64,000 bases of DNA from Candidatus Poribacteria bacterium (GTDB lineage Bacteria; Poribacteria; WGA-4E; GCA-2687025). A program made the position numbers and the translations under genes. The notes under the pieces are model-generated. The model saw only the letters and a program-made list of their open reading frames with translations. It searched no databases and was not told the DNA's origin. The stretch lies in the NCBI GenBank assembly GCA_018644665.1, contig JABGQA010000077.1:3263-67262 (forward strand), in the 5' to 3' direction. Positions 11,098 to 60,331 of the stretch are shown here, piece after piece; within the stretch, counting starts at the first letter, position 1; every line of letters starts with the position of its first letter.

Positions 11098-12009
11098 ATG
11101 ATTCGAGCGATTCCTGCGCTGTGTCTGGCGACGTCGATGGCGGCACTGGCGGCGCAGCGGCTGCTGGGCCGCATCGCGTACCGCACAAGCGAGTGGTCCA
11201 GCAGTCGCGTCGTTGCGATGGATGCGGCTGGAGGCGATCATATCCAACTCGCGCGCGTGCCGGACAGTGGCTTCCCGCACTGGTCCCCGGATGGCACTCG
11301 CGTCGCCGTGGGTCACCAGACCATGGACCTGGACGGCCGTGGCCCCGACACCGTGTAGCCTGACCACGAGATCGTCGACTGGTCGCAGGATGGAGAGTGG
11401 TTCGCTGTCCTCGATAGGAAGGGCGGCGAGCGGGGTGGTCACGCCGTCGCGAGTATCCGCGCCGACGGATCCGGTTTCCAACGGCTCACGGACCCCGAAT
11501 TCACGCACATGTCGCCCGTCGAGTTGTCGCCGATCGGCTCGCGTCCGCTCGTGGCGGGCATGCGCGGCTCCGGCTGCGTGAGTTACCTGGTTGACGCCGG
11601 TGCAGGCACGCTGGGCCAGTTGATCCCGACCGGCGTCGGCGCGTATGGCGCGCACCGGTCAGCCGCCGGGGCCATCTACTACGTGCCCAACAGCACCGCG
11701 CTGGGCGGCCTACGGCGCGTCGATATCCGGGATAGGTCCATCACCCAACTCCAGGCGGGCTGGCGCATCCGCCGCTTGCGCGCGATGTCCCCTGACGGGC
11801 AGTGTCTGCTCCCAGAGGGGGAGCCGTTCGGGGCGAGGCGGCGTACCTATCGGCGTACGACCTTCAGGGCGCCTTGGTCGCGCCGACCCCGTCGAAGGCC
11901 CGGTGGCCTGGCAGCCGCCGGTTGGTTTATCCCGCGATCGCTGCTGGCGATGTCGCCGGCCGGGAAACGGGCGGTCACATGGGGCGCGCTTCGCTCGGGC
12001 GTCGACTGA
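11098..12009 (+). pseudogene. interrupted secreted TolB-like (PD40) beta-propeller protein with C-terminal sorting-like tail
   Basis: Signal peptide, GRIAY, PHWSPDGTRVA; in-frame TAG at 11356-11358 followed in the same frame by DWSQDGEWF...DGSGFQRLT; probable compensating frameshifts near 11820-11920; ends AMSPAGKRAVTWGALR. Confidence 0.7.
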
Positions 12010-12085
12010 ACGCCACTGAGCTGCCTGTTGTGTGGACGCGCTCGCCCGCTCTCGGGTCGCGGAATACCGCTCGTCCCGACGCCGC

Positions 12086-12493
12086 CTACGGACCGTCGTA
12101 GCCCGCCGCCTGCCACTCTCCCAGAACGCGGAACGTCTTGACGACTCGGTTCTCGGCGGGCGGATGCTTCGCGAGGAACGCCTCAAGCGCGTCTGCGTCG
12201 GCGAAGCGGTAGACGCCGCCGAACTCGTTCCTATCGAAGTTACCGACGAACGTCTTCGCCTGAAAGCCTTCGATCGCGTCACGCGTGTAGTCCTCGCTGA
12301 GCTTGCGCACTCCGGCCGCGGCGTACTCCTCGGTCCACGCTGACTCCGGCTGGAACGACGTGACCATGACGTAGCGGACCACCGCTGGGTCGTCCGGCGG
12401 CCCGGCTCCGTCCGCGATGGCGCTACCGCCCACCGCAACGCCTACCCCGAGCAATGCGCCCAGCAACGCCGCGAACAGAGTACGACCGGACAT
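12086..12493 (-). CDS. secreted YdhR-like dimeric alpha/beta-barrel protein
   Basis: Signal peptide ending AIA; GFQAKTF...EFGGVYRFADADALEAFL resembles the YdhR/monooxygenase core. Confidence 0.6.
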   Translation of the reverse strand: MSGRTLFAALLGALLGVGVAVGGSAIADGAGPPDDPAVVRYVMVTSFQPESAWTEEYAAAGVRKLSEDYTRDAIEGFQAKTFVGNFDRNEFGGVYRFADADALEAFLAKHPPAENRVVKTFRVLGEWQAAGYDGP

Positions 12494-12566
12494 AGACTCT
12501 TTCCCCTAGTCATAGAGCGACACGAGGCGAACCGGGGTAGAGCCACCCGCCGGCGGCATCCGTCGC

Positions 12567-14174
12567 CTAGGGCGCCTCGCGCGACGCCTGCCACGTAGAC
12601 CAGTTCCCCGTGACGAACCGGAGTCGCGTGGACCCCTCCTCGAACACGAGCAAGCGCGTCGCCACCTTATCCACGAAGAAGCGATCGTGGCTAACGACGA
12701 TCACCCCACCGGGGTAGTGGGCCAGAGCGCGTTCCATCACCTGCGAACTCGTGAGGTCGAGGTGATTCGTGGGCTCGTCGAGGATGATGAGGGGCGCGCC
12801 GGAGAGCAGGCACAGAGCCAAAGCCACGCGCGCCTGCTCCCCGCCCGAGAGAGTGCCGATCTGCTGTCGCAGGTCCATCTCGGAGAACCGCATAAGCGAT
12901 AGGAACCGGTTGACCTGCTTTCGTGGCGCGCGATCGCCGAGACCTGACGTGTTCACCACGTGGGTCACTGTGTCGTTCAGGTTGAGGTCGTCGCGGATGG
13001 CGTTGAAATAGGCGTAGGGAATGTCCCCGCGGCCCCATCGCACGTCGCCCGTGTCTGGCAGTTCGGCATCCGTGAGCACGTTCAGTAGCGTGCTTTTCCC
13101 GCAGCCGTTTGGGCCGACTACCGCCAGCCGCTCGCGTCGATGCACCTCGAAGCCGACTTCCGAGAACAACTCCTGGCCGTCGTACCCTTTGGACAGGTTC
13201 TCGACGCGGCACAGTATCTCCGGCGCGCTCAGCCCTCGGTATATGCCGGTGAGTATCCGGTCGACGGGGCGAGGCTCGACGGAGCGCTTGATGTTCGCCA
13301 GCTTGCGCTTCATGTGGTCGCTGGGGTTCTTGCGCGCTTCCTCGCGGTCGCGGATCGCCTCCGCCTCGAAGGCGAGCAACTCCTGCTCGTACTGGAACTG
13401 TCGCTCCATGCGTTTCAGCCGTATGGGCTTCTCACGGACGTACTGTGTGTACCCTCCGGCGTATTCGTGGAGGTGGAAGTTCTCTATCTCGACGACCCGC
13501 GTCACCACGGAATCCAGAAAGTGGCGATCGTGCGACACGACGATGAGAGCGCCGTTCAGCTTAACGAGCCACTGCTCGAGCCATGCGAGGCCCTCTATGT
13601 CGAGGAAGTTCGTGGGCTCGTCCAGCAGCAGTAGGTCGGGGTCTTGGAGCAGGATCTTCGCGAGCGCCGCTCGGTTCTGCCACCCTCCCGACAACTGCTC
13701 CACGGGACGATCCGCGTGGACCTCGCTGAATCCCAGCTTCGTCAGGACCGTCTCGATCTGGCTCTGGTAGGTCCACCCGTCGATGCGCTCCATCTGTTCG
13801 AGCAGCGCGGACTGACGCGTGATGAGCTTGTCGATGTCGTCGGCCTCGGCCATCGCGGCCTCGACCTCACGGAGTTCCTTGTCCAGGGCGTGCACCTCTG
13901 GGAACAGCCCGTCCAGGATTTCGCGGATGGACATGCCGCCGCTGAGCGTCGAGAACTGCGAGAAGTAGCCCACGCTGGCATCCGCCGTTACGTCGACGGC
14001 GCCGGAGTCCGGTTCCTCCTGGCCGAGAATCATGCGGAATATGGTCGTCTTGCCCGAGCCGTTCTTCCCGATGAGCCCGACGCGTTCGCCCGCCTGGAGG
14101 CGGAAGGAGACGTCCCGCAGGACGCGGTTCGCATCGTAGCTCTTCGAGACGCTATGCAGACGTATCAGGCTCAT
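12567..14174 (-). CDS. ABC-F family ribosome-associated ATPase
   Basis: Two ABC domains (GKNGSGKT / GPNGCGKS, LSGGW / LSGGE, LLDEPTN twice, SHDR twice), no TM; start MSLIRLHSVSKSY. Confidence 0.93.
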   Translation of the reverse strand: MSLIRLHSVSKSYDANRVLRDVSFRLQAGERVGLIGKNGSGKTTIFRMILGQEEPDSGAVDVTADASVGYFSQFSTLSGGMSIREILDGLFPEVHALDKELREVEAAMAEADDIDKLITRQSALLEQMERIDGWTYQSQIETVLTKLGFSEVHADRPVEQLSGGWQNRAALAKILLQDPDLLLLDEPTNFLDIEGLAWLEQWLVKLNGALIVVSHDRHFLDSVVTRVVEIENFHLHEYAGGYTQYVREKPIRLKRMERQFQYEQELLAFEAEAIRDREEARKNPSDHMKRKLANIKRSVEPRPVDRILTGIYRGLSAPEILCRVENLSKGYDGQELFSEVGFEVHRRERLAVVGPNGCGKSTLLNVLTDAELPDTGDVRWGRGDIPYAYFNAIRDDLNLNDTVTHVVNTSGLGDRAPRKQVNRFLSLMRFSEMDLRQQIGTLSGGEQARVALALCLLSGAPLIILDEPTNHLDLTSSQVMERALAHYPGGVIVVSHDRFFVDKVATRLLVFEEGSTRLRFVTGNWSTWQASREAP

Positions 14175-14441
14175 GCCCGGAGACTCATGGACGTGGGTGT
14201 GCGCGGCGGGCACATAGAACAACGCCGCGCGCGTACCGTCAAGCCACGTGCACGCTGCTCGGCCGAGACGCGTCACGGACGTGGCCGTCTCGGCCGGACC
14301 TCGCGCCAACTTCGCACATCGCTCGTCGGCGGATGCGGTTGTGGCAGGGCGCCGCTATCTTTGTGCACGAGGTAGCGCAGACACCCGAACGGGCCCGCCC
14401 TCGGTCGCGTATGGGTTCCGTTCTTGCTGGAGTGTTCCGGC

Positions 14442-16523
14442 ATGTCCATAGACGCATCCCGTAGGATCGTGCGACGGCGCCGCGCACACGTGCTTCTCGC
14501 CGCGGCCCTCATGGTCGGCGCCACCTCGGTTGTCCACGGTGTGGGAGGCGGGAATCTGCTCGCGAACAGCGGGTTAGAGAGCGGCGCCCCGGGGCCGTGG
14601 ACCCTATACGGCGACGCGACGATGCGTGTCGTCAACACGCAGACGCCGGAAGGGGATCACGCGCTCGAAGTGACGGTGACTGACCGAGGAGCGAACCCAT
14701 GGGACTCGGGGCTCTCCTACCCGAATCTCGCTTTCGAGGCGGGCAAGCTATACAGGCTGACAGCTCTGCTCAGATCGCCGGACGGCATGCGCATCACGTT
14801 CAAGCCATCGAGCGTAGGACCGCTCTGGACGGCGTACGGAGACAGGACATTCACGCTGACAGACGCGTGGCAGCGATACACCATCGTGACGCCCGTCATC
14901 ACCTCGGACGTCATTCCGGCCGAACTCCAGTTCCACATCGCCTTCGATGTCGGTACGTTGCTGATGGACGACGTCGACTTCAGCGCCCTAGCGACGCCAC
15001 CGAGTCACCCGGGCTCGAATGTGTTCGATGACGCGCGACCCCGGCAGAAGGGCATCGCGTACAGCAGTTGGATGTCCGGCGGGTATTCCACGCCCGCCGC
15101 GGACAGAGCGCTGGCAGAGCTAGAGTCGACCGGGGCTACGTGGATCAGCCTTCTTGTGGTGGGCTTTCAGGACACGATCTCCTCCACGGACATCTCCGCG
15201 CGCGACGACCTGACGACGACTGATGAGGATTTGGCGCACGCGATCGGTGACGCCCATCGGTTGGGGTTGCGTGTCATGCTGAAGCCGCACGTCGAGCTGG
15301 TCGAGCTCACCGAGCATTGGCGTGGGCAGATCGGCGAAGAGTTCGTGACCGAATCGACATGGCTCGATTGGTTCGGTGCCTACCGGGAGTTCATCTTCCA
15401 CTACGCTGAGCTGGCCGCGACGCACAGCGTCGATCAGTTCTGCGTCGGCACTGAACTGCCCGGTACAACGCACCGAGCCGATGAGTGGCGAGAGCTGATC
15501 GACGGCGTGCGCGAGCGCTTCTCGGGCCCGCTTACCTATGCGGCCAATCCGGGCGAGGAACTCGCCATCGATTGGTGGGACGCGCTCGACCTCATCGGCG
15601 TCGACGCGTACTACCCAGTCAGCGACACGGACGAGACGACCCCGGAGGGTCTGACGAGTGGTTGGCAGGCCCACCTGCCCGTGCTGTCCGCGTTGGCATA
15701 CCGATGGGCCAAACCGATCGTTCTGACTGAGATCGGCTATCGGAGCCTGGATGGGGCGAGCCGCCACCCGGGCGATCACGCCGTCATGGGCGTCGTCGAT
15801 CCGCAGGAACAAGCGGACTGCTACCAAGCCGCGTTCGAGGGCCTGTACGATCAGCGTTGGCTCGCGGGGATGTATTGGTGGGAGTGGCATGCCAACCCCT
15901 TCACCGGCGGGCCTTGCGACACGGACTACACGCCACATCACAAGCCAGCCGAGAACGTGCTGCGTTCCTGGTATGGCGCGCCGCCGCTCTCGATGCCGCT
16001 GTCGTCGTCCGATCACCGGTCGACGCCCGACTACAGCAACGTGGTCGACATCTACACTGATGCCTTGGGAGAGGGGTGGGAGGGCCGGTCCTGGGCCTAT
16101 CATCAAGACCTGTCCGCGTCAGACCGGGTGTACGCTGGCGTCCATGCGTTGTCTGCTTCCCTGCAGCCCTTTGAGGGCCTGCGCTTCTCCCGGCGAGCGT
16201 TGGACACAGCGCCCTATGACTGGCTGGACCTCCACGTGCGCTCGGAGAGTGACGACCTGCTGCCACTATGGGTGTTCTTCCATGACGAGCACGGGCAGAT
16301 CCAGAGAACGTGTGAGCTAACCGCGAATCCTGAGCACGTCGTTGCGGAGCCGGGCCGATGGCGGGATGTGCTGCTTCCCTTGGCCGCACTGCTTCCCGCG
16401 GGTCGCACGGTGAACTCTCTGACCTTCCAGAACTTCGATACACGCCCGCTGCGTGTATGGATCGACGAAGTTAGGCTGGTCGCGGGGGCTCAGCCAGAAC
16501 GACCCGCTCCTCTACGCGAGTGA
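14442..16523 (+). CDS. secreted GH113-like glycoside hydrolase with N-terminal CBM4/9-like and C-terminal carbohydrate-binding-like domains
   Basis: VMLKPHV, WRGQI, VGTEL, LTYAAN, WWDALDLIGVDAYYP, VLTEIGY, GMYWWEW; NLLANSGLE start typical of CBM4/9. Confidence 0.85.
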   Translation: MSIDASRRIVRRRRAHVLLAAALMVGATSVVHGVGGGNLLANSGLESGAPGPWTLYGDATMRVVNTQTPEGDHALEVTVTDRGANPWDSGLSYPNLAFEAGKLYRLTALLRSPDGMRITFKPSSVGPLWTAYGDRTFTLTDAWQRYTIVTPVITSDVIPAELQFHIAFDVGTLLMDDVDFSALATPPSHPGSNVFDDARPRQKGIAYSSWMSGGYSTPAADRALAELESTGATWISLLVVGFQDTISSTDISARDDLTTTDEDLAHAIGDAHRLGLRVMLKPHVELVELTEHWRGQIGEEFVTESTWLDWFGAYREFIFHYAELAATHSVDQFCVGTELPGTTHRADEWRELIDGVRERFSGPLTYAANPGEELAIDWWDALDLIGVDAYYPVSDTDETTPEGLTSGWQAHLPVLSALAYRWAKPIVLTEIGYRSLDGASRHPGDHAVMGVVDPQEQADCYQAAFEGLYDQRWLAGMYWWEWHANPFTGGPCDTDYTPHHKPAENVLRSWYGAPPLSMPLSSSDHRSTPDYSNVVDIYTDALGEGWEGRSWAYHQDLSASDRVYAGVHALSASLQPFEGLRFSRRALDTAPYDWLDLHVRSESDDLLPLWVFFHDEHGQIQRTCELTANPEHVVAEPGRWRDVLLPLAALLPAGRTVNSLTFQNFDTRPLRVWIDEVRLVAGAQPERPAPLRE

Positions 16524-16677
16524 CGCTCCCGGACACGGCCGGGCGGACGGTGGGGTCCAATGCGCCGATCTCTCGGGCCGCCTCAACATCGTGCAGTCGT
16601 GCGTACATGGTAACGGTTGGCCGCTGCGGCACGTACACTGTCTCTCGGTCGGCGGCCGCCACCGAGAGGAACAGCGC

Positions 16678-17606
16678 ATGGCGGACGATGGCACCATCGT
16701 CGACACGCCTGCGCGAGCGCTTCACCACGTCCGCTGCGCTTTCCCCGAGCTCAACGCGAGCGACGCGCGAGCCCTCGACGACGGGTGGGCCAGCTATCCG
16801 TACATGGTCGACGACACGTGGGTCTTCCGCTTCCCCCGCGCGTTTCAGGTCGAGCGCCAATACCGCAAGGAGAGGCGGTTCCTTCCTCGTCTCGCCCCTC
16901 GGGTCACGATCGCGGTTCCGAGCATCGAATGCGTCGGCGTCCTACCGGACGGACGCGCGTTCATGGGGCATCGGGCGATCCATGGGGAGCCGCTGACGCG
17001 ACGTGGCATCGACGCGATGTCGACCGCGGCCCGCGACGCGGTGATCGCCCAGATTGTGGGCTATCTTCGCGCCCTGCACGGGTTCCCCTCGACGAAGCGC
17101 GGGAGATCGGCCTCCACGAAGGCCGCATGCGCGACCGGTACGAGGAGCTTGGCGAGGGCGCTCGTGAGCACGTGCTCCCCTCTCTGGGCGCGGCTGCCCG
17201 CGCCGACTGTGCCACACTGTTCGAGCAGTTCCTCGGCGACGCTGGGAACTTCGCGTACCGCGCCGTGGTGATCCACAGCGACCTCGGGGGCAGGCACGTG
17301 TTGATGGATGGAACGCCGCGGGCGGTGGGCATCATCGACTATGGCTCCGCGTGCATCGGCGATCCCGCCGGGGATTTCCGCCCGGCGCTGTTCGATTTCG
17401 GCGAGGAGTTCACACGCGAGCTGCTCGCCGATTACGGACACGATGATCCCGACCGGGCAGTGCGCAACGCCTACTTCTGCCGCGTCGCCGGCGCAATCGG
17501 TGGGTGGCTGGAGGGCGTCCGGGAAGGCGCCGAGTGGAAGATCGACAATAAGCGCGACGCCCTGCGCCACGCGCTGACAGCCTACACGGAGCGGCCAGGC
17601 GCGTGA
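16678..17606 (+). pseudogene. APH-family phosphotransferase split by a frameshift
   Basis: N-half (DGW..., WVFRFPR, LRALHGFP) and C-half (LDEAREIG..., IHSDLGGRHVL, GIIDYG, GDPAGD) are in different frames and join if one C is added in the CCCC run at 17085-17088. Confidence 0.8.
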
Positions 17607-17625
17607 TCGCCCAGCGCTATCGGGG

Positions 17626-19032: not shown

Positions 19033-19126
19033 ATATTCCCCGCTGCAGTTGGGTCTCAGGCGGATCTGCACGCAAAGTCTACCGCATGGGCATGCGGCGG
19101 GTATCGGCTCGACGGCGGGACGCCGG

Positions 19127-33545: not shown

Positions 33546-33556
33546 GGGGACGAGAC

Positions 33557-41503: not shown

Positions 41504-42319
41504 ATGCACAATCGAATCTCTGTCGTATGCGTTGTCGCTATGACGCTGGGCCTCGCGAATCTCGGCGTCGCAGTCTTGGCCGACGGTCTCGTGGCGTACT
41601 GGGCCCTCGACGCGGGGGCCGGAAACGTCGCCCGTGATGGAACCGGCGGCGGCGCCGACGGCTCACTCGTGAACGGGCTCGCGTGGGCGCCGGCCGCGGA
41701 AGCTAGGGTCGGCGCGAGCGCCCTCAGCTTCGATGGCGAAGACGACCTGCTCTCCATCGGCACGCTGGATGTCGAGGGCGATGGCGCGACGTTCGCGTGT
41801 TGGTTCTTCGCGACCAACCTCGACACGCCCGGCAACGACCCGCGCATGATCTCCAAGGCGATTGGTGGGGACAGCGACCAACACTGGTGGATGATCAGTT
41901 CGGGTCGGCAAGGCGCCGTGAAGGTCCTTCGCTTCCGGCTGAAGACCGACGGCGTCACCGGGGAGCTGAAGGCGAACGTGGCAACGGGCGGCATCGAGCC
42001 GGGTGTGTGGACCCACGCCACGGCAACCTGGGACGGCTCCAAGATGCGGCTGTACAAGGACGGCGTAGAAGTAGGCATCCTCCCCAAGGCGGGGGAACTC
42101 GACACGGACAGCACAGTGGCCGCGGCCATCGGCAATCAGCCCGACGGGGCCGAGAACAGGCCGTTCGAAGGCGTCATCGACGAGGTCGGCATCTGGAGCC
42201 GCGCGCTCACGCCCGACGAGATCGCCGAAGCGATGGGCGGAGAGTTCCTCGCCGTCGACGCTGCGGGGAAATCGGCGACGACATGGGCGAACATACGGCG
42301 TCGCTCGATCGGCCGCTAG
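41504..42319 (+). CDS. secreted LamG/concanavalin-A-like protein with C-terminal tail
   Basis: Signal peptide, GLVAYWALD, ALSFDG, WTHATATWDG...LYKDG, FEGVIDEVGIWSRAL; ends AVDAAGKSATTWANIR. Confidence 0.9.
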   Translation: MHNRISVVCVVAMTLGLANLGVAVLADGLVAYWALDAGAGNVARDGTGGGADGSLVNGLAWAPAAEARVGASALSFDGEDDLLSIGTLDVEGDGATFACWFFATNLDTPGNDPRMISKAIGGDSDQHWWMISSGRQGAVKVLRFRLKTDGVTGELKANVATGGIEPGVWTHATATWDGSKMRLYKDGVEVGILPKAGELDTDSTVAAAIGNQPDGAENRPFEGVIDEVGIWSRALTPDEIAEAMGGEFLAVDAAGKSATTWANIRRRSIGR

Positions 42320-51756: not shown

Positions 51757-51779
51757 ATCAATGACGGAACGACGAGCAG

Positions 51780-51813
51780 GAAGGGGAGCGCTCAGCCTTG
51801 GGCGTTCCCCTTC
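51780..51813. terminator. strong hairpin, probably a bidirectional terminator
   Basis: 15-bp stem GAAGGGGAGCGCTCA / TGGGCGTTCCCCTTC, just downstream of the minus-strand epimerase. Confidence 0.7.
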
Positions 51814-51837
51814 TAGTGCTCATGCGCTGGCAGGCGG

Positions 51838-52680: not shown

Positions 52681-52786
52681 CGGATGTCTCCTCTGAGGCG
52701 CCGCGAGCCCGGCCATGTCGTGACCCGACTGCTGGCCTACGCTATGATTCCTATGTTCCGACCCGACACATCAAGAGAGACCCCGC

Positions 52787-54013
52787 TTGTCCCTGCCTGG
52801 ACCACCGCCCGCCGACTCCGGGCCAATCGAGTCGGTGTGGCGATCTCGCGACTTCCGTGTGTGCTGGGGTTTGACCGCGCTGTTCAACGTGGCGTGGGGC
52901 GTAGTGTTTCCACTGCGCAATCTGTATTTCCGCGAGCCGTGGATCGGCCTGAGTTTCCAGCAAATCGGCTGGCTGGGCTTCGTGCGCTCGGCGACGATGG
53001 CGTCGGTCCCGCTGCTCTTCGGCATTCTCTCCGACCGCTCAGGCCGCCGCAAGCCGTGGATCATGGGCGGATTCCTGCTGTCGAGCGCCGCGACGGCCCT
53101 GTACCTGGTCAGCCACACGTACTGGCAACTCGTGGGCGTGACGTTCCTCACGGCGGTGGCGTTCATCGCCTACAACCTGAACGTCAACGCGCTCGTGACC
53201 ACGACACTGCACGACAAGGCCCGCGGTCGCCAGTATGGCCAGTACCGCGTCTCTGGCAGCATAGGCTACGCTCTCGCCACCTTCGCCCTCATCCCGCTCG
53301 TAGCGCTGGACAAGACGTACTCCGCGACCTTCCTCAGCGGCGCGGGAATCTACCTCGCCTGCCTCATCGTGGCATTCCTGGGCATCAAGGAGACCCCGGC
53401 GACCGGCGAGGCCGCATCTCAATGGGGCGCGTGGCGCGAGGTACTGCGCGAACGCAACCTGGTCATTCTGTACGCCTGCCTCGCGGTCAGCTCGATCGGC
53501 ACTTCGATGGGGTTCCAGTTCCTCTCGAACCACCTCGACGAGACGTTCCACCTTTCGAAGACATCGATCGGTCGCATCGTCGGGCTGGCCTCGATTCTGG
53601 AGATCCCCGCGCTCATCGGTCTCGGCTGGGCGTCCGGCCGCTGGGGGCGCAAGCCGATCCTCGCGCTGGCGTTCATCATGGGTGGCGTGCGGTGGAGCCT
53701 CATCGGACTGGCGCCGTCGCTGGGCTGGGTCGTCGTCGCTCAGTTCCTGTGGGGCATGGGATTCGCTGGCTACACAGTGGGTGTCGCGCTGATTACGGAT
53801 CTCGTGCGGCCGGCCGCCCGGGGCAGCGCGATGGGCATGCTGCAACTGTCGTGGGCGTTCGGGAGCATCCTCGGCCCGCCACTCGGGGGCTATCTGGCCG
53901 AGCACATCGGTCTGCCGATCGTGTTCCGGGTCGGCGGCGCCTTCGCGATTGCCGGCGGAGTCGGCCTGCTAGCGTTCCTGCGCCCACCGGATGCCGTGGA
54001 CGCGACGGCGTGA
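52787..54013 (+). CDS. MFS transporter (paralog 1 of 3)
   Basis: About 12 TM, GILSDRSGRRKP motif A, YGQYRVSGSIG, RGSAMG; TTG start. Confidence 0.9.
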   Translation: MSLPGPPPADSGPIESVWRSRDFRVCWGLTALFNVAWGVVFPLRNLYFREPWIGLSFQQIGWLGFVRSATMASVPLLFGILSDRSGRRKPWIMGGFLLSSAATALYLVSHTYWQLVGVTFLTAVAFIAYNLNVNALVTTTLHDKARGRQYGQYRVSGSIGYALATFALIPLVALDKTYSATFLSGAGIYLACLIVAFLGIKETPATGEAASQWGAWREVLRERNLVILYACLAVSSIGTSMGFQFLSNHLDETFHLSKTSIGRIVGLASILEIPALIGLGWASGRWGRKPILALAFIMGGVRWSLIGLAPSLGWVVVAQFLWGMGFAGYTVGVALITDLVRPAARGSAMGMLQLSWAFGSILGPPLGGYLAEHIGLPIVFRVGGAFAIAGGVGLLAFLRPPDAVDATA

Positions 54014-54072
54014 GGGAGCGTGCGGTCTCCATGCGAGCCACGACGGCTCAGCCGCGTTAGGAGAGCATCGGG

Positions 54073-55314
54073 TTGTCGCTGTTTGCATCTCAGCCCACAG
54101 ACCACGGCCCACCGGGATCGGTGTGGCGGTCGCGCGATTTCCGCACGTGCTGGATGCTGTCGGCCACGTTCGGAATCGCGTGGGGTCTCGTGTGGCCGCT
54201 TCGCAACCTGTATTTCCGCGATCCGGCGGTCGGGCTGAGCCTACAGCAGATCGGGTGGCTGGGGTTCGTCCGGTCAGCGACGATGGCGTCGCTACCGCTT
54301 GTCATAGGGATCCTGTCCGACGGCTCAGGTCGACGCAAGCCGTGGATTGTGTGGGGCTTCGCTCTGTCGAGCGTCAGCGCCGCGTTGTACTTGTCGGCGC
54401 ATGGCTTCTGGTCGCTCGCGGTGGTGACGTTTGTGAATGCGCTCGCGTTCGTCGCATACAACGTCAACGTCAACGCCCTTGTCACCACGACACTGCACGA
54501 CCACGCTAGAGGGCGGCAATTCGGCCTATACCGGGTGTCGGGCAGCATCGGGTACGCCGTCGCGAACTTCCTCGTGATCCCGTTCGCCGCGCTCGACCCG
54601 ACATACGCCGCCACGTTCCTCACGGGCGCGTTGATCTACCTGACGTGCATGGTCATCGCGCTCGTGCGCGTGCACGAGCCGCCGGCCAAGGAGGGCGCGC
54701 CGTCTCAGTGGGGCGCGTGGCGCGAGGTGCTGGCCGAGCGTAACCTTGTCGTGCTCTATGTGTTCATGGCGGTCAGCGCGATCGGGACGTCGATGGGGAT
54801 GCAGTTCATGGCGAACCACCTCGACGAGACGTTCCACCTGTCGAAGGCTTGGATCGGCCGTGTGATCGGGTTGGCCGCGGTGATCGAGATTCCGGCGCTC
54901 ATCCTGTTGGGGCGCGCTTCCGACCGCTGGGGTCGGAAGCCGATACTCGTGTTCGCATTCATCGTGGGAGGCGTGCGGTGGGTGTTGGTCGGCATGGCGC
55001 CGAACGTGGGATGGGTCGCCGTCGCCCAGGTGATGTGGGGGCTCGGCTTCGCGGGGTATACCGTGAGCGTGGCGCTCATCACGGACCTTGTGAAACCCGC
55101 GGCGCGTGGCAGCGCCATGGGTATGCTGCAGCTCTCATGGGCGTTCGGGAGCGTCATCGGCCCGCCGATCGGCGGCTACATCGCGCAGAACATCGGCTTG
55201 CCGGTCGTGTTCCGTGTGGGTGGTGGCTTTGCGATCCTGGGCGGGCTCGGGCTGCTATTCATGCTGCGCGCGCCGGGCTCGGCGCCGGGCGCTGCGCACG
55301 AAGCGACCCGATGA
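54073..55314 (+). CDS. MFS transporter (paralog 2 of 3)
   Basis: Same motifs as, and strong similarity to, both neighbours; TTG start after AGGAG. Confidence 0.9.
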   Translation: MSLFASQPTDHGPPGSVWRSRDFRTCWMLSATFGIAWGLVWPLRNLYFRDPAVGLSLQQIGWLGFVRSATMASLPLVIGILSDGSGRRKPWIVWGFALSSVSAALYLSAHGFWSLAVVTFVNALAFVAYNVNVNALVTTTLHDHARGRQFGLYRVSGSIGYAVANFLVIPFAALDPTYAATFLTGALIYLTCMVIALVRVHEPPAKEGAPSQWGAWREVLAERNLVVLYVFMAVSAIGTSMGMQFMANHLDETFHLSKAWIGRVIGLAAVIEIPALILLGRASDRWGRKPILVFAFIVGGVRWVLVGMAPNVGWVAVAQVMWGLGFAGYTVSVALITDLVKPAARGSAMGMLQLSWAFGSVIGPPIGGYIAQNIGLPVVFRVGGGFAILGGLGLLFMLRAPGSAPGAAHEATR

Positions 55315-55367
55315 GCGACCAATCGCGCCGTGCCATACAGCCACCACCGCACTAGGAGGGCATCGGC

Positions 55368-56603
55368 TTGGCCGCGTCCGAAGCGCCTCCCACGGCGCAG
55401 GAACCGCAGGGATCCGGGTGGCAGTCGCGCGACTTCCGCACATGTTGGTTTCTAACCGTCGCGCTAGGAACGGCGGCGGGGATCGTCTGGCCGCTACGAA
55501 GCCTGTACTTTCGCGCGCCGTGGATCGGCCTCAGCCTCCAGCAGATAGGCTGGCTTGGATTCGTCCGCTCCGCGACGACGACCGCGCTCCCGCTCCTCGT
55601 CGGGGTGATGTCGGATCGGTCGGGCCGGCGCAAGCCATGGATCGTGGGCGGGCTCGGACTCGCGAGCGTCGCCTCTGCGCTGTACCTCGTGTCCCACAGC
55701 TTCTGGCCGCTCGCGTTCGTGACGTTCTGTTCGTCGGCTGCGATGGTGGCGTACGGCCTCAACCTGAGCGCCCTCGTGACCAACACGCTGCACGACGGCG
55801 CGCGGGGAAGGCAGTACGGCTTGTACCGGGTCTCCGGCAGCATCGGGTTCGCCGTTACCAGCCTCGGGCTCCTTCCTATCGTGGCACTCGATACAACGTA
55901 CGCGGCCGCCTTCCTATCGGGGGCGGTCATATACCTCGTGTGCTGCGCGGTGAGCGGCGTGAAACTCCTCGACACGGCCGCGCCGGTCGCGGACTCACTG
56001 CGGTGGGGCGCATGGCGTGAAGTGTTGGCCGAGCGCAATCTCGTCGTGCTCTACGTCTGGATGGCGGTGAGCGCCGTCGGCGGGTCCATGGGCATGCAGT
56101 TCATGGCGAACCACCTCGACGAGACGTTCCACCTGTCGAAGGCGTGGGTAGGTCGCATGATGGGACTGGCCGCGGTGATCGAAATCCCAGCCATCCTGTT
56201 TCTGGGGCGCCTATCCGATCGGTGGGGCCGCAAGCCTATCCTCGTCTTCGCGTTCATCGCGGGCGGCGTGCGTTGGGGGCTCGTCGGTGTCGCGCCGAAC
56301 CTTGCGTGGATCGCCGTGGCTCAGGCGATGTGGGGCCTCGGCCTGGCCGGCGCCATCGTCAGCGTGGCGCTCATCACCGACCTCGTGAAGCCCGAGGCGC
56401 GGGGCACGGCGATGGGGATGCTGCAGCTTTCCTCAGCGTTCGGCAGCATCATCGGCCCGCCGATAGGAGGATACATCGCCCAGAACGTCGGCCTCCCGGT
56501 CGTCTTCCGCGTCAGCGGCGGCTTCTCGATTGTCGCCGGGATAGGCCTGCTGCTGATGCTGCGTCCGCCCGGCGGGGAACGTCAACCCGAGTCGCCGGCC
56601 TGA
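55368..56603 (+). CDS. MFS transporter (paralog 3 of 3)
   Basis: Same motifs; TTG start after AGGAGG. Confidence 0.9.
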   Translation: MAASEAPPTAQEPQGSGWQSRDFRTCWFLTVALGTAAGIVWPLRSLYFRAPWIGLSLQQIGWLGFVRSATTTALPLLVGVMSDRSGRRKPWIVGGLGLASVASALYLVSHSFWPLAFVTFCSSAAMVAYGLNLSALVTNTLHDGARGRQYGLYRVSGSIGFAVTSLGLLPIVALDTTYAAAFLSGAVIYLVCCAVSGVKLLDTAAPVADSLRWGAWREVLAERNLVVLYVWMAVSAVGGSMGMQFMANHLDETFHLSKAWVGRMMGLAAVIEIPAILFLGRLSDRWGRKPILVFAFIAGGVRWGLVGVAPNLAWIAVAQAMWGLGLAGAIVSVALITDLVKPEARGTAMGMLQLSSAFGSIIGPPIGGYIAQNVGLPVVFRVSGGFSIVAGIGLLLMLRPPGGERQPESPA

Positions 56604-57550
56604 CCCGAACCGCGAGGAGCCGGCATCGGCCCGGCGAAGGCTGTCGATGGCGTAAAGCCGGAACTCTCGTCGGCGACGACGTGATTCCGCAGCCGGCCAA
56701 TCCCCTCGATATCCACTTCCGTGACATCGCCGGGAACGAGGTAAACCGGCGGGTCCATGAAGTGCCCGACGCCGCCGGGGGTGCCGGTCATGATGACCGT
56801 GCCGGGGAGCAGCGTCATGTTGTGGGACAGGTAGGAGATGAGCGTCGGCACGTCGAAGATCAGGTGGCGCGTGTTCGACGACTGCATCGCCTCGCCGTTG
56901 AGGATCAGTCGGATGTCCAGGCCCGACGGGTCGAGACCGGTGGCGGCGTACGGCCCGAGCGGGCAGAACGTGTCGAACGACTTGCCGCGCACCCACTGGC
57001 CGTTCGGGGCCTCCAGTTGGGCGTCGCGCGCGCTGACGTCGTGACCGCACGTGTAGAAGCCCACGTACTCGAGCGCGTTCGCTGGCGTCACGTCACGCGC
57101 TTCATGACCGATGACGACCGCGAATTCTGCCTCGTAGTCCACCTGAGCCGGGGCCATGCGCGGGATGACGATCGTGTCTTCGTGACCGACGACCGACGCC
57201 GGGAACTTCACGAAAACCGTCGGCTCGGTAGGCTGTGGGCTGAGCGGCGCGCCAGAGGCGGCATTCGCGACGTTCAGTTCGTCCAGATGATCCTGGTAGT
57301 TCAGCCCGATCGCTAGGACGAGCGGGGGTCGACCAACGGGCGAGACGATCATCCCCGGCTCGGCCTGGAACGGCTCACCGCCGTCCGGGTCGCCGAACGC
57401 GGCCATCAGTGCGGGGTAATAGGCGGGATCGTGCTCTGGCGGTAGTTGGGCAAGCAGCGTGCCGGACGCGCGGCCGTCGTCGTCCGACCGTTCGACCGTA
57501 CCCCACGTCGGAACGCCATCGTCGCCCAGGAATCGAACGAACGTGCCCAT
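56582..57550 (-). CDS. fumarylacetoacetate hydrolase family protein
   Basis: IGLNYQDH, EPTVFVK, VDYEAE, HDVSARD, GKSFDTFCPLGP, TGTPGGVG. Confidence 0.92.
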   Translation of the reverse strand: MGTFVRFLGDDGVPTWGTVERSDDDGRASGTLLAQLPPEHDPAYYPALMAAFGDPDGGEPFQAEPGMIVSPVGRPPLVLAIGLNYQDHLDELNVANAASGAPLSPQPTEPTVFVKFPASVVGHEDTIVIPRMAPAQVDYEAEFAVVIGHEARDVTPANALEYVGFYTCGHDVSARDAQLEAPNGQWVRGKSFDTFCPLGPYAATGLDPSGLDIRLILNGEAMQSSNTRHLIFDVPTLISYLSHNMTLLPGTVIMTGTPGGVGHFMDPPVYLVPGDVTEVDIEGIGRLRNHVVADESSGFTPSTAFAGPMPAPRGSGQAGDSG

Positions 57551-57597
57551 CGTCTGTTACCTGCCTCGTTTGGTCTGGTCCGGTCGGCCGGACGGTG

Positions 57598-57626
57598 AGT
57601 ATAGGCGCCGTGTTAAGGGCTGTCAA
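57598..57626 (-). promoter_or_regulatory. consensus sigma-70 promoter for the FAH gene
   Basis: TTGACA (57626-57621), 17 bp spacer, TATACT (57603-57598) on the minus strand. Confidence 0.75.
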
Positions 57627-57653
57627 CGCCCATCGCAGGCGGCACGCGAGGAC

Positions 57654-57690
57654 TTGACGTCGGCGCGCCGTATCCGTACCGTGCTACCAT
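57654..57690 (+). promoter_or_regulatory. sigma-70 promoter for secreted paralog 1
   Basis: TTGACG-17bp-TACCGT with an overlapping extended -10 TGCTACCAT. Confidence 0.55.
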
Positions 57691-57763
57691 GGAACGTCCG
57701 CTCGGCGGCAGCGGACAGGCTTGTGTCGTACGCTCGTTCGCGCACATCAAGGGGGAATCCCAT

Positions 57764-58519
57764 ATGCCGAAGCGCATGATTCTGGGTATCGCATTGGCGG
57801 CTGGCCTCGCGGCCGCGCCGGCGTTCGCGGTCGACTTCCAGCACACGGGTGACGACGGCTGGATTGAGGGGTGGCTATCGATGGAAGTCGTCATGAATAA
57901 CGGCGGCTTCGCGGCCTCCGGCGCGATCGACTTCCTGTCCGATGGCACAGACGGGGACATCACCCACGAAAGCGTCTCGACGGCAAAGGGGCTCCGGAAG
58001 CTGGCCACTGCCGAGGTGAAACTGGACAAGGCGCACTCCGGCTTCGGGATGGGTGAAGACGGTGTCTGGGACTGGGAACCCATCACGATCGACACGAACA
58101 ACGGCGACAACATGGCGACGTCGTGGGGTCTAGCCGCGGGATCCGACAACATCGAATGGCACGGCATTCTCGTGATGAAGTCGTCCAAGAACCGCACGGC
58201 GACGATGCATCCGGCCCACGACGACTACGCCCAGATATGGATAAACGGCGAGCAGGTATACGACAACGACCAGTGGACCGGCGCCGTTCGCCAGGTGACG
58301 CGGCCGACAGACGTCGAGTTGGTGGCGGGAGACAACGTCCTGCTGTTCAAGTGCGGCGAATCTGGCGGGTCCGCCTACGTGAACCTGCGCTTCGAAGACA
58401 GCGAAAGCGACATCGACATCGTCCCGACCGTGGATGGCGAGTTCTGGAACTTCGCAGGGCTGGCCGTCGAGGCGCAGGACAAGGCCGCAACTACGTGGGC
58501 CGGTCTGAAGTCGCGCTAG
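57764..58519 (+). CDS. secreted PA14/jelly-roll-like protein with C-terminal tail (paralog 1)
   Basis: Signal peptide ending AFA, NNGGFAASG, HPAHDDYAQIWING, GDNVLLFKCGE, tail AVEAQDKAATTWAGLK. Confidence 0.85.
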   Translation: MPKRMILGIALAAGLAAAPAFAVDFQHTGDDGWIEGWLSMEVVMNNGGFAASGAIDFLSDGTDGDITHESVSTAKGLRKLATAEVKLDKAHSGFGMGEDGVWDWEPITIDTNNGDNMATSWGLAAGSDNIEWHGILVMKSSKNRTATMHPAHDDYAQIWINGEQVYDNDQWTGAVRQVTRPTDVELVAGDNVLLFKCGESGGSAYVNLRFEDSESDIDIVPTVDGEFWNFAGLAVEAQDKAATTWAGLKSR

Positions 58520-58554
58520 TCTACTCCGCTGACAGACGGCGTCGTGCGGTCGTC

Positions 58555-58583
58555 TTGCGGCACACACGACGCCGTGCTACGGT
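58555..58583 (+). promoter_or_regulatory. sigma-70 promoter for paralog 2
   Basis: TTGCGG-17bp-TACGGT with TG extension. Confidence 0.55.
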
Positions 58584-58677
58584 CCCGGTTCGCCAGCTCG
58601 CGCTGGCAGGATAGGGAGCATCCGCCGCCCTGGCGGATGCCAACGCATGCACACACATGCGCACATAGGGGGTTTCC

Positions 58678-59430
58678 ATGCGCAAACGCATGACATTCAG
58701 TCTCGCACTGGCGGCGACCGTCGCCATCTCGCCCGCGTTCGCGGCCACGTTCCAGCACACCGCGTCCGATGTATGGATCGCGAAGTGGTTCGCGATGGAA
58801 AACGTCATGAACAACGGGGGCTTTGCGGTCTCCGGTGGGATCGACTACTTCGCCGAGGGCACGGGCGGCGACCTCACGTACGAGTTCGTGTCCACCACTA
58901 AGGGCCTCGGCGACCTGAGCCGCGCGGAGATCTCCTTGGACGACGCGCACGCAGGTCTCGGCATGGGCGAGGACGGCGTCTGGGACTGGGAAGTCGTCGA
59001 GATCGACACCGACGACTCCAACAACATGTCCACCGGCTGGGGCATGGTCGCATCGGACAACTTCACCTGGCACGGCATCATCGTCATGAAGGCGCCGTCC
59101 GCGCGCTCTACGACGATGCACCCCGCCCACGACGACTACGCGCAGATATGGATCAACGGCGAACTTGTCTATGACAACGACCAATGGACCGGCGGCGTCA
59201 AGACTGTCACGCAGCCAATGGACGTTGATCTCGTGCAAGGGGACAACGTCGTCCTGTTCAAGTGCGGGGAGTCCGGCGGCGACGACTACATCAACCTCCA
59301 CTTCGAGGACAGCGACAGCGACATCGACATCGTCCCGACCGAAGAGGGTGATTTCTGGATCTACGCCGGCCTCGCGGTCGAAGCGCGGGACAAGGCCTCA
59401 ACAACGTGGGGCGAGCTGAAGGCGCGATAG
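58678..59430 (+). CDS. secreted PA14/jelly-roll-like protein with C-terminal tail (paralog 2)
   Basis: Same motifs; tail AVEARDKASTTWGELK. Confidence 0.85.
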   Translation: MRKRMTFSLALAATVAISPAFAATFQHTASDVWIAKWFAMENVMNNGGFAVSGGIDYFAEGTGGDLTYEFVSTTKGLGDLSRAEISLDDAHAGLGMGEDGVWDWEVVEIDTDDSNNMSTGWGMVASDNFTWHGIIVMKAPSARSTTMHPAHDDYAQIWINGELVYDNDQWTGGVKTVTQPMDVDLVQGDNVVLFKCGESGGDDYINLHFEDSDSDIDIVPTEEGDFWIYAGLAVEARDKASTTWGELKAR

Positions 59431-59467
59431 CGCGTCCCTGCGACGACGACCCGTTCCGTGGGGCGCC

Positions 59468-59496
59468 TTGCGGCCTCGGTCGCGCGGTGCTACTAT
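59468..59496 (+). promoter_or_regulatory. sigma-70 promoter for paralog 3
   Basis: TTGCGG-17bp-TACTAT with TG extension. Confidence 0.6.
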
Positions 59497-59599
59497 CAAT
59501 ACCTCGTCGGCTCCGGCCGGCAGTGTGAGGGGGTGGCGACCGGCCGCGTTGCGGCTCCTGGTTCGGTCACCCAGATTCTCAGTAGGAGACATGCACGAT

Positions 59600-60331
59600 A
59601 TGAAGAGCAAATGGCTCATTGTCAGCGCGTTGGCGCTGAGTTTGGTCGTGAGTGGCGCGGTCGCTCAGGACTGGCAGACGACCGGCGCCGACGCCTGGAT
59701 TGAGGGCTGGCTGGGTCTCGAGATCATCGAGAATAACGGTGGCTTCGCGGCCTCCGGTCTGATCGACTTTATCAGTGAAGGCACCGGCGGCTCGCACACG
59801 CACGAGACCGTGTCCACGCAGAGCGGCGTGCGCGCGACGCAGTCCATGGTTGTGTCGCTTGCCGACTACGGCGGTGACCACACGTGGATGCCGATCACGA
59901 TCGACACCACGGACGGCGACAACATGAACACGTCGTGGGGTCTGGACCCAGGCGCGGACAACACCGAGTGGCACGGCATCATCATCGCGGCTTCGCCCAC
60001 GGCGCAGACCGTGACGATGCACCCGGCCCATGACGACTACCTGCAGGTGTGGCTCAACGGCGCCCAGGTCTACGACAACGACCAGTGGACCGGCGACGTG
60101 CGCGGCGTTACGACCCCGACCGACATCGACCTGAACCAGGGCGGCAACGTCCTGCTCTTCAAGTGCGGTGAGTCCGGCGGCTCGGCTTACGTGAACGTCT
60201 GGTTCGAAGCCGACAACCTCCAGGTCGCACCGACTGTCGACGGTCAGTTCTTCGAGGTCCTCGACCTCGTCGCCGTCGAAGCCAAGGGCAAGGCCAGCGT
60301 GCGTTGGGCAGACCTCAAGGTCGTCCGCTAA
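59600..60331 (+). CDS. secreted PA14/jelly-roll-like protein with C-terminal tail (paralog 3)
   Basis: Signal peptide ending AVA, HPAHDDYLQVWLNG, GGNVLLFKCGE, tail AVEAKGKASVRWADLK. Confidence 0.85.
   Translation: MKSKWLIVSALALSLVVSGAVAQDWQTTGADAWIEGWLGLEIIENNGGFAASGLIDFISEGTGGSHTHETVSTQSGVRATQSMVVSLADYGGDHTWMPITIDTTDGDNMNTSWGLDPGADNTEWHGIIIAASPTAQTVTMHPAHDDYLQVWLNGAQVYDNDQWTGDVRGVTTPTDIDLNQGGNVLLFKCGESGGSAYVNVWFEADNLQVAPTVDGQFFEVLDLVAVEAKGKASVRWADLKVVR

What the first reader, a model, noticed from the sequence alone, without database searches (positions are those of the whole stretch)
11941..60331. Shared C-terminal tail on five secreted proteins of three unrelated folds: candidate protein-sorting/surface-display system
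Seen in sequence: the TolB-like gene ends LAMSPAGKRAVTWGALR (about 11944-11994), the LamG protein LAVDAAGKSATTWANIR (about 42248-42298), and the three PA14-like paralogs LAVEAQDKAATTWAGLK, LAVEARDKASTTWGELK and VAVEAKGKASVRWADLK. The consensus [LV]-A-[VM]-x-[AP]-x-[GD]-K-x-x-[TV]-[TR]-W-[GA]-x-[LI]-[KR] lies 2-7 residues from the stop, with invariant Lys and Trp. All five have N-terminal signal peptides; no cytoplasmic protein here has the tail, nor do the secreted GH113 and ASPIC proteins. It has no TM helix, unlike LPXTG, PEP-CTERM or GlyGly-CTERM, and is far shorter than a T9SS CTD. Inference: a lineage-specific export, anchoring or docking signal read by machinery not encoded in this window. 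I recall such tails being common on Poribacteria proteins but know of no characterised mechanism.
Basis: partly seen in the sequence, partly recalled or inferred. Interest (0 to 1): 0.8.

Follow-up and report, generated by a model that had tools for sequence, protein, structure and literature searches.

The report
Poribacterial C-terminal protein sorting tag
A conserved tail of about 20 residues ends a hundred or more exported proteins in every Poribacteria genome searched, and it looks like a new protein-sorting or anchoring tag whose reader is still unknown.

Summary
All five tails are at the stated coordinates. In the window's 7.47-Mb genome a tail HMM finds 179 copies within 15 residues of a stop codon and only 9 internal ones. 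Six of those 9 lie directly in front of a T9SS type-A C-terminal domain. By a crude test, 166 of 179 carriers have a Sec-type signal peptide, against 1305 of 4721 background ORFs.

The carriers fall into 50 sequence clusters. These include ConA-like/LamG, CBM4_9, CBM9, NPCBM, PD40 propeller, alpha/beta-hydrolase, thioredoxin-like and cohesin+PKD proteins. Related LamG and redoxin proteins from other lineages lack the tail. AlphaFold2 leaves it unstructured. Codon third positions vary freely.

The genome is a poribacterium. All 81 Poribacteria genomes sampled carry 12 to at least 102 copies, against 0 of 60 further genomes in a control phylum. No Pfam or NCBIfam model matched it in the 24 and 7 carriers scanned, and no searched paper describes it.

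Best reading: a portable, phylum-specific C-terminal linear tag, read in trans in the cell envelope for retention or sorting.

The parts
11020..12009 (+). TolB/PD40-like tail-bearing gene. It has a signal peptide, an in-frame TAG at 11356-11358 and the tail at 11944-11994. Probably a broken copy.
41504..42319 (+). Signal peptide + LamG (Laminin_G_3) protein of 271 aa. The tail is at 42248-42298, followed by 6 residues and the stop.
   Evidence: AF2 gives the domain pLDDT about 97 and tail residues 252-271 below 50.
57689..58519 (+). PA14-like paralog 1 (likely start at 57764). The tail is at 58460-58510.
   Evidence: Contigs from RNA libraries begin at 57701-57712.
58678..59430 (+). PA14-like paralog 2, 250 aa. 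The tail is at 59371-59421.
59468..60331 (+). PA14-like paralog 3 (likely start at 59591 or 59600). The tail is at 60269-60319.
   Evidence: Contigs from RNA libraries of three studies end at 60346-60348.

Best explanation
The tail is a portable short linear tag specific to Poribacteria. Its consensus is [LT]-A-V-[DE]-[PA]-x-G-K-[LA]-[AT]-T-T-W-[GA]-x-[LIVM]-[KR], followed by 1-6 mostly basic residues and the stop.

Carriers are exported by Sec through ordinary cleavable signal peptides. The tail stays flexible, is not part of the folded domain, and is read in trans in the cell envelope. I think its most likely role is to retain or dock the protein on an envelope component. The carriers are mostly small, single-domain glycan-binding modules and a few enzymes.

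In a minority of large T9SS cargo proteins the same motif sits immediately before the CTD. There, removal of the CTD would leave the tail as the mature C-terminus, the same end state as in the small proteins.

Shown: the existence, position, portability, phylum range, selection at protein level, signal-peptide association and lack of intramolecular structure.
Inferred: that it is a sorting or anchoring signal, that the CTD is cleaved, that recognition is by strand or hairpin addition, and the compartment where it acts.
For: Position: 179 C-terminal against 9 internal HMM hits at >=10 bits in the own genome, 6 of the 9 directly upstream of a T9SS CTD. In other Poribacteria, 188 of 192 are C-terminal and 4 of 192 are pre-CTD.

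Export: 166/179 have a signal-peptide-like N-terminus against 1305/4721 background ORFs. The peptides look like classical AxA type I signals.

Portability: there are 50 BLAST clusters. Of 19 short-tail representatives, 10 match Pfam families of different folds: Laminin_G_3, DUF1349, CBM_4_9, 3keto-disac_hyd (two), PD40, alpha/beta-hydrolase, CBM9, AhpC/TSA redoxin and NPCBM. One further carrier is a cohesin+PKD protein.

Add-on nature: among 77 LamG hits, the query's own record included, 29 end with the tail. The two named Poribacteria are among those 29, and none of the six named Planctomycetota or Phycisphaerales has it. Among 120 redoxin homologues only the 3 closest have it.

Structure: AF2 gives pLDDT<50 for the tail next to confident domains, in both contexts.

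Selection: third codon positions carry 1.2-1.8 bits of entropy where the first two are conserved.

Range: 21/21 relatives and 81/81 phylum genomes have it, against 0/60 further genomes of a control phylum. Of 80 listed hits of a genome-wide pattern scan, 77 are named Poribacteria.

Functional logic (inference): proteins that are only a CBM or lectin module are useful only if tethered, and the one cohesin-bearing carrier resembles an anchoring scaffoldin.

Presence in RNA libraries: the three window paralogs lie in contigs from RNA libraries of 4 studies, with contig ends at the cluster borders.
Against: No reader, receptor or processing enzyme was identified. Gene neighbourhoods gave no enriched partner: DUF6785 lies within two genes of a tail gene 8 times, against about 6 expected by chance.

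Nothing shows where the carriers end up (periplasm, outer membrane or surface). Nothing shows whether the tail is kept, cut or modified.

The link between domain and tail is short, about 8-10 residues in the LamG protein. This fits a targeting signal or a tight dock better than a long surface stalk.

Some carriers, such as the DsbE/TlpA-like redoxin and PD40 proteins, belong to families that work in the periplasm (general knowledge). That argues against a purely cell-surface role.

Only 6 strong and about 5 weak cases among 94 CTD proteins have the motif, so the link to T9SS could be a relic of domain shuffling.

The signal-peptide test is a home-made heuristic, not SignalP.
Confidence: 0.5

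Rival explanations
1. Sortase-type signal. The tail is recognised and cut by a dedicated peptidase or transpeptidase, and the protein is then covalently attached to an envelope glycolipid or polymer. The candidates are the extra PorU-like Peptidase_C25 paralogs. The 1-6 residues after the motif, or the whole CTD in dual-tag proteins, would be the leaving group.
For: All well-studied short C-terminal tags that occur on many unrelated exported proteins in one lineage are read by a dedicated processing enzyme (established knowledge: LPXTG/sortase, PEP-CTERM/exosortase, GlyGly-CTERM/rhombosortase, CTD/PorU). This genome has two giant C25 proteins, each with a full catalytic domain (277 and 259 bits) plus its own CTD. 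All 41 Poribacteria genomes sampled have 1-4 such genes, mostly 2-3. The motif sits 2-13 residues before the CTD start, where PorU would be expected to cut.
Against: PorU acts on the outer face of the outer membrane (established knowledge). The small Sec-only carriers have no known way to get there. The number of C25 copies does not follow the number of tails: G008 has 12-22 tails and 2 copies, and G000 has 179 tails and 2 copies. No cleavage is shown. No conserved small-residue cut site follows the motif.
Confidence: 0.2
2. Outer-membrane translocation signal. The tail targets small folded periplasmic proteins to an export route across the outer membrane, either a T9SS variant or another pore, and so acts as a secretion signal and not as an anchor.
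For: Tail and CTD split the exported proteome by size. Stop-to-stop ORF medians are 276 aa for tail proteins and 1091 aa for CTD proteins. T9SS-like parts are present: a SprA-like gene, PorV/PorQ family genes and C25 genes. The short domain-tail link fits a targeting signal.
Against: Dual-tag proteins would then carry two export signals. There is no sequence similarity to the CTD. At 20 residues and unstructured, the tail is unlike any known T9SS signal.
Confidence: 0.15
3. Structural or self-association element with no sorting role. For example, a beta-hairpin that mediates oligomerisation of the carriers or caps their fold.
For: The pattern [DE]-P-x-G flanked by beta-branched and hydrophobic residues looks like a turn between two short strands (my reading of the logo; inference).
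Against: It occurs on unrelated folds and is absent from close homologues elsewhere. AF2 does not pack it on the domain. The strict C-terminal or pre-CTD position and the signal-peptide link would be unexplained.
Confidence: 0.08
4. Turnover tag. The tail is a C-terminal degron or quality-control handle read by a periplasmic tail-specific protease.
For: C-terminal peptide tags are read by PDZ-domain proteases in other bacteria (established knowledge).
Against: The conserved part is 1-6 residues away from the free end, at variable distance, and about 100 residues away from it in dual-tag proteins. It is hard to see why 100-180 proteins per genome would carry a degron across a whole phylum.
Confidence: 0.05
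5. Not a protein feature. The conservation would reflect a DNA or RNA element at gene ends, or an assembly or annotation artefact.
For: Tail genes use TAG stops more often than background ORFs do, 122/179 against 2149/4721.
Against: Third codon positions vary while the first and second are fixed. No conserved base follows the stop. The motif is found in 81/81 independent genomes, many of them closed.
Confidence: 0.01

Closest known systems
T9SS type-A C-terminal sorting domain (TIGR04183 / FlgD_ig-like CTD)
   Same: It sits at the C-terminus of signal-peptide proteins of many families. It occurs in the same genomes: 92 TIGR04183 matches in G000. The tail's only non-terminal position is directly upstream of this CTD.
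   Different: The CTD is a folded domain of about 90 aa, with pLDDT 85-95. The tail is about 20 aa and unstructured. TIGR04183 does not hit short-tail proteins, and profile-profile probability is 0.1%. The CTD marks large proteins and the tail marks small ones.
Tripartite C-terminal sorting signals read by membrane transpeptidases (LPXTG/sortase, PEP-CTERM/exosortase, GlyGly-CTERM/rhombosortase, PGF-CTERM/archaeosortase)
   Same: These too are a short signature motif at the very C-terminus of dozens to hundreds of otherwise unrelated exported proteins. They are restricted to a lineage, and basic residues end the protein.
   Different: There is no hydrophobic transmembrane segment: only 4 of 179 tails reach a 15-residue hydropathy mean of 1.6. 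No NCBIfam model of these signals matched. No dedicated enzyme was found.
Dockerin-cohesin and SLH-type anchoring of surface glycan-degrading complexes
   Same: A C-terminal module is shared by many carbohydrate-binding or enzymatic proteins and would tether them. Canonical cohesins (19 matches) and dockerins (37 matches) exist in this genome.
   Different: A dockerin is a folded Ca-binding domain of about 60-70 aa (established knowledge). No Pfam Dockerin match was found on the 24 tail carriers scanned. Here the canonical dockerins mostly sit on ORFs that also match the T9SS CTD model.
Encapsulin / microcompartment cargo-loading peptides
   Same: A C-terminal linear peptide of 10-20 residues, disordered until bound, grafted onto unrelated cargo (established knowledge).
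   Different: Those cargos are cytoplasmic. Here 166/179 carriers have signal peptides.
Outer-membrane-protein beta-signal
   Same: A short C-terminal strand-like motif read in the envelope.
   Different: The beta-signal ends in an aromatic residue on beta-barrel proteins (established knowledge). The tail ends in Arg in 82 of 111 cases and sits on soluble domains.

Membership tests
T9SS type-A CTD (TIGR04183) | Match to the TIGR04183 model above its cut-off of 23 bits | tested here: not met
   none of the 7 short-tail proteins scanned hit TIGR04183 at E<=1. The dual-tag protein L020 hit it with 28.9 bits, downstream of the motif.
T9SS type-A CTD (TIGR04183) | Folded Ig-like beta-sandwich of about 70-100 residues | tested here: not met
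   The tail is about 20 residues. AF2 gives pLDDT<50 for it and 85-95 for the real CTD. hhalign probability is 0.1%.
T9SS type-A CTD (TIGR04183) | C-terminal position on Sec-exported proteins | tested here: met
Sortase/exosortase/rhombosortase-type tripartite signals | Hydrophobic transmembrane helix after the signature motif | tested here: not met
   4 of 179 have a 15-residue window with mean hydropathy >=1.6 in the last 40 residues. The median longest uncharged run is 8 residues.
Sortase/exosortase/rhombosortase-type tripartite signals | Match to a curated NCBIfam signal model | tested here: not met
   no model matched the tail in 7 carriers at E<=1.
Sortase/exosortase/rhombosortase-type tripartite signals | Many unrelated carriers per genome, restricted to a lineage | tested here: met
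   179 carriers in 50 clusters. 81/81 Poribacteria genomes against 0/60 further control genomes.
Sortase/exosortase/rhombosortase-type tripartite signals | A dedicated processing enzyme that co-occurs with the signal | tested here: inconclusive
   C25/PorU-like paralogs are present in 41/41 genomes. They also serve, or could serve, the CTD. No link to the tail is shown.
Dockerin (PF00404) | Match to the Dockerin_1 model (duplicated Ca-binding loop-helix) | tested here: not met
   No Dockerin hit in the 24 tail carriers scanned with Pfam. Dockerins in this genome lie elsewhere.
Outer-membrane beta-signal | Terminal aromatic residue on a beta-barrel protein | tested here: not met
   The last residue is Arg in 82/111. 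The carriers are soluble-domain families.
Cytoplasmic cargo-loading peptides (encapsulin/BMC) | Carrier lacks a signal peptide | tested here: not met
   166/179 have a signal-peptide-like N-terminus.

The most novel reading that the evidence does not exclude
Poribacteria run a second protein-sorting pathway, so far undescribed, that works without a transmembrane segment. In it, a 20-residue tag is read by one of the extra PorU-like C25 transpeptidase paralogs or by an unknown envelope receptor. Selected T9SS cargo would reach the same end state after CTD removal. This would amount to a phylum-specific display system for glycan capture in sponge and marine habitats.
Probability: 0.2. Interest if true: 0.9.

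Novelty: new variant of a known kind. Interest (0 to 1): 0.78.

Why it matters
Lineage-specific C-terminal sorting tags have repeatedly led to new envelope machinery: sortases, exosortases, rhombosortase and the T9SS. This tag marks roughly 3% of the ORFs in a crude gene call for this genome (179 of about 6,067). It is present in every Poribacteria genome sampled. It has an architecture that no known system reads: no transmembrane helix and no folded domain.

Poribacteria are uncultured, abundant sponge symbionts whose cell envelope and compartments have long been debated. A conserved tag gives three practical handles. It is a single epitope with which to localise over a hundred proteins at once. 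It is also a simple rule for predicting the tethered or secreted glycan-binding proteome. Finally, it would improve annotation, because these proteins are now called 'hypothetical' or 'LamG domain-containing'.

Tried and rejected
1. Neighbourhood search for a reader. The recurring neighbours were ASPIC/FG-GAP-like (13), PD40 (11), CTD fragments (9), an oxidoreductase-like family, by eye, no family search (8), TPR (8) and DUF6785 membrane proteins (8). The DUF6785 pairing looked interesting until one search showed 54 copies in the genome. Eight neighbours is about the chance number (roughly 6). Rejected.

2. 'Mini-CTD' idea, that the tail mimics the end of the T9SS CTD. hhalign probability was 0.1%. 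Not supported.

3. Complex prediction with a PorV/PorQ-family barrel (C20, residues 30-314, alignment A7) and a 40-residue tail alignment (A8). The verdict was 'no answer', score 0.00 in both runs, and the controls were not run. This is no evidence either way.

4. The search of protein representatives was my mistake. Alignment A5 mixed 36-residue tails with full-length LamG rows. The profile therefore became 264 positions and found LamG-repeat giants (340,408 hits at E<=0.001). A global count of tail-bearing protein clusters is therefore missing.

I replaced it with a degenerate DNA pattern scan.

6. Literature. Seven searches were run:
- Poribacteria + 'sorting signal': 0 papers.
- Poribacteria + C-terminal + signal peptide: 15 papers.
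- Poribacteria + type IX secretion: 3 papers.
- Poribacteria + LamG: 1 paper.
- Poribacteria + cohesin + dockerin: 1 paper.
- Poribacteria + metaproteom: 42 papers.
- Six motif strings: 0 papers.
None of the listings or abstracts seen mentions the tail. Of PMC3909097 I read six passages. It reports TIGR04183 on WD40 genes and says Por structural genes were not found. Its Tables S8 and S9 could not be seen because supplements are closed. Of PMC12599313 I read eight passages, none relevant. Subscription journals were not searchable, so 'not in print' holds only for these searches.

7. The three non-Poribacteria names were checked. L049 lies in G091, whose match coordinates equal those of G018; it is a poribacterium under another label, with 95 matches. 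The 'Pseudomonadota' MAG G092 (1.9 Mb) has 4 matches. The 'Planctomycetota' MAG G093 has 2 weak ones on contigs of 2-3 kb. I read these as probable mis-binned contigs and did not test that.

9. The RNA-library contigs show presence. The tool warns that this alone does not prove transcription. Flanks without cover inside the laid stretch are only a weak control.

Full report
**The observation**

A strict regex run over all six frames of the window returns five matches and no others. All are on the + strand, at 11944-11994, 42248-42298, 58460-58510, 59371-59421 and 60269-60319. Each lies 2-6 residues before a stop codon.

- The LamG carrier (41504-42319) matches Laminin_G_3 with 90.6 bits.
- The three tandem paralogs (57689-60331) match PA14 only below threshold, or not at all. 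A language-model look-up places them with poribacterial hypothetical proteins.
- The 'TolB-like' carrier (11020-12009) is interrupted by an in-frame TAG at 11356-11358. It shows only weak similarity to tail-bearing PD40 paralogs, so it is probably a decaying copy.

**Scale within the genome**

The window lies in a 7.47-Mb, 66% G+C genome of 175 contigs.

- The core regex hits 118 times in 72,544 six-frame ORFs. It hits once in reversed sequences and 1-4 times in shuffled ones. Of the 118 hits, 111 are within 15 residues of a stop.
- I built a 20-column HMM from those 111 and searched it without regard to position. At 10 bits or more it finds 179 C-terminal copies and 9 internal ones.
- Three of the 9 internal hits lie in short ORFs of 63-102 residues. 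The other six lie in WD40 proteins of 786-908 residues, directly in front of a T9SS type-A C-terminal domain.
- One of those CTDs matches TIGR04183 at 28.9 bits, above the cut-off of 23.
- By eye, five more of the 94 CTD-bearing ORFs have a degenerate copy in the same place.

**Who carries it**

- By a crude home-made test (start codon, basic n-region, 10-residue hydrophobic core), 166 of 179 carriers have a signal peptide, against 1305 of 4721 background ORFs. The peptides look like ordinary type I Sec signals.
- Carriers are small. Measured from the predicted start, the median is 255 residues and the 5th-95th percentiles are 198-330. Measured stop to stop, the median is 276 residues, against 1091 for CTD proteins.
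- With the tail removed, they fall into 50 BLAST clusters. The largest has 68 members.
- I scanned one representative for each of 19 clusters, covering 143 of the 179 carriers, with Pfam. The matches were:
  - Laminin_G_3;
  - DUF1349 (below cut-off);
  - CBM_4_9;
  - 3keto-disac_hyd, twice (one below cut-off);
  - PD40;
  - alpha/beta-hydrolase families;
  - CBM9_1;
  - AhpC-TSA/Redoxin;
  - NPCBM.
- Nine of the 19 representatives had no family.
- One singleton is a cohesin+PKD protein.

The tag therefore sits on at least six clearly different folds. The fold assignments behind that count rest on general knowledge of these Pfam families.

**It is an add-on, not part of the domains**

- Of 77 hits in the search with the window's LamG protein, its own record included, 29 end with the tail. 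These include the closest ones and both that NCBI names Poribacteria.
- The six named Planctomycetota or Phycisphaerales share 39-59% identity over the domain but have no tail. Some of these records are partial.
- Of 120 listed homologues of the redoxin carrier, only the three closest (100, 76 and 60% identity) have the tail.
- AlphaFold2 with a 48-row alignment models the LamG domain at pLDDT about 97. It leaves residues 252-271, the tail, below 50.
- In a dual-tag C-terminus the CTD reaches 85-95, and the motif region is again below 50.
- Third codon positions vary freely where the first and second are fixed. No conserved base follows the stop. Selection therefore acts on the peptide.

**Range**

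- With a 24-row tail alignment, 21 of 21 relatives had 22 to 150 matches; these span 8 families of one class. At most 150 candidates per genome were scored.
- 81 of 81 genomes sampled across the phylum had 12 to 102 matches at E<=0.001, with at most 102 scored. Three of them belong to another class.
- A degenerate DNA pattern scan was run over one genome per species for 185,579 species. Of the 80 listed, 77 are named Poribacteria. The three exceptions are a mislabelled poribacterium and two MAGs with 4 and 2 matches.
- In the phylum of the 'Planctomycetota' MAG, none of 60 further genomes had a match.
- In the 119 loci fetched from other Poribacteria, 188 of 192 HMM hits at 12 bits or more are within 15 residues of a stop. 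The other 4 are followed by the CTD start, and none is internal elsewhere. These loci were chosen because each holds one pattern match, so only the additional hits are independent.

**Comparison with what is known**

- No NCBIfam model touched the tail in 7 carriers at E<=1.
- No Pfam model did either.
- There is no transmembrane stretch.
- There is no profile similarity to the CTD.
- Seven literature searches found no description.
- In the passages I read, Kamke et al. 2014 (PMC3909097) noted TIGR04183 on poribacterial WD40 genes and reported that Por structural genes were not found.

On that last point this genome differs. It encodes two giant Peptidase_C25/PorU-like proteins, PorV/PorQ-family barrels and a weak SprA-like gene. 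C25 genes are present in 41 of 41 phylum genomes sampled.

**Mechanism**

The following are established:
- a flexible linear peptide;
- grafted onto exported proteins of many folds;
- kept at protein level across a phylum;
- tolerated in only two places, the very C-terminus or the residues just before a removable CTD.

My inference is that it is read in trans in the envelope, and that in both contexts the working form is a protein ending in this tail.

I favour a retention or docking role (0.5) for two reasons. Most carriers are bare glycan-binding modules, which are only useful when tethered. One carrier is a cohesin protein, which resembles an anchoring scaffoldin.

The main rivals are:
- a sortase-type cut-and-attach mechanism using the extra C25 paralogs (0.2);
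- a signal for translocation across the outer membrane (0.15).

The remaining rivals carry 0.08, 0.05 and 0.01.

Periplasm-type carriers (redoxin, PD40) and the short domain-tail link are points against a simple surface-stalk picture. I found no reader. Neighbourhood analysis gave only chance-level partners. One co-folding attempt with a PorV/PorQ barrel gave no answer.

**Expression**

The three window paralogs are held, at 99-100% identity, in contigs assembled from RNA libraries of four studies. One contig spans 57701-60346. Contigs of three studies end at 60346-60348, about 15 bases after the last stop. Little or no cover lies beyond. This is a hint of transcription, not proof.

**Limits**

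- The signal-peptide test is crude.
- The phylum census is a sample with capped counts.
- The only outgroup sample is one phylum.
- My one search of the large protein library was mis-specified and is void.
- Function, location and processing are all untested.

**Verdict**

This is a real, strongly non-random, phylum-wide C-terminal tag with an architecture unlike the known sorting signals. I rate it a new variant of a known kind, with interest 0.78.

Noticed in passing
window 11356-11358 (within 11020-12009, +): There is an in-frame TAG inside the TolB/PD40-like tail gene, followed later by an Arg-rich stretch that looks out of character. It is probably a pseudogene or a sequencing error. Read-through was not tested.
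   Followed up: partly
G000 C131:10359-17597, C142:183711-189713, C20:28473-29417, C82:18354-19550, C25:33954-34958, C171:54707-58532: T9SS-like parts exist in this poribacterium: two Peptidase_C25/PorU-like proteins of 2000-2400 aa with their own CTD, PorV/PorQ-family barrels, and a weak SprA-like gene. C25 genes are in 41/41 phylum genomes sampled, usually 2-3 copies. A 2014 single-cell study (PMC3909097, passages read) reported that Por structural genes were not found.
   Followed up: partly
window 2-1408 (-), and 54 places in G000: The DUF6785/DUF6784 family of polytopic membrane proteins is expanded to 54 copies in this genome. One copy runs off the start of the window. Its function is unknown.
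   Followed up: partly
G000; C11:41725-43140 (L163): Canonical cohesin (19 matches) and dockerin (37 matches) domains are present, mostly on ORFs that also match the T9SS CTD model. One cohesin+PKD protein ends with the short tail instead.
   Followed up: partly
all 179 tail genes of G000: Tail genes end in TAG in 122/179 cases, against 2149/4721 background ORFs. The last residue is Arg in 82 of 111. In lower-GC Poribacteria the last residue is more often K, Q, Y or N. Unexplained.
   Followed up: no
window 57701-60346: One contig from an RNA library spans all three PA14-like paralogs. Contigs of three studies stop about 15 bases after the third stop codon. This would fit one transcription unit with a 3' end near 60346. 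The runs are labelled seawater or marine metagenome.
   Followed up: partly
G000 C46, about 95-130 kb: There is a tandem array of about 12 paralogous genes of about 1100 aa, each ending in a T9SS CTD.
   Followed up: no
G008, G072, G089: Some Poribacteria genomes carry far fewer tails than the usual 80 to over 100. G008 has 12 at E<=0.001 and 22 at E<=1; G089 and G072 have 29 and 30. This was not related to genome size or C25 copy number.
   Followed up: no
G092 and G093 (L050, L075): MAGs labelled Pseudomonadota (1.9 Mb, 4 matches) and Planctomycetota (6.7 Mb, 2 weak matches on contigs of 2-3 kb) hold a few tails. These are probably mis-binned poribacterial contigs.
   Followed up: no
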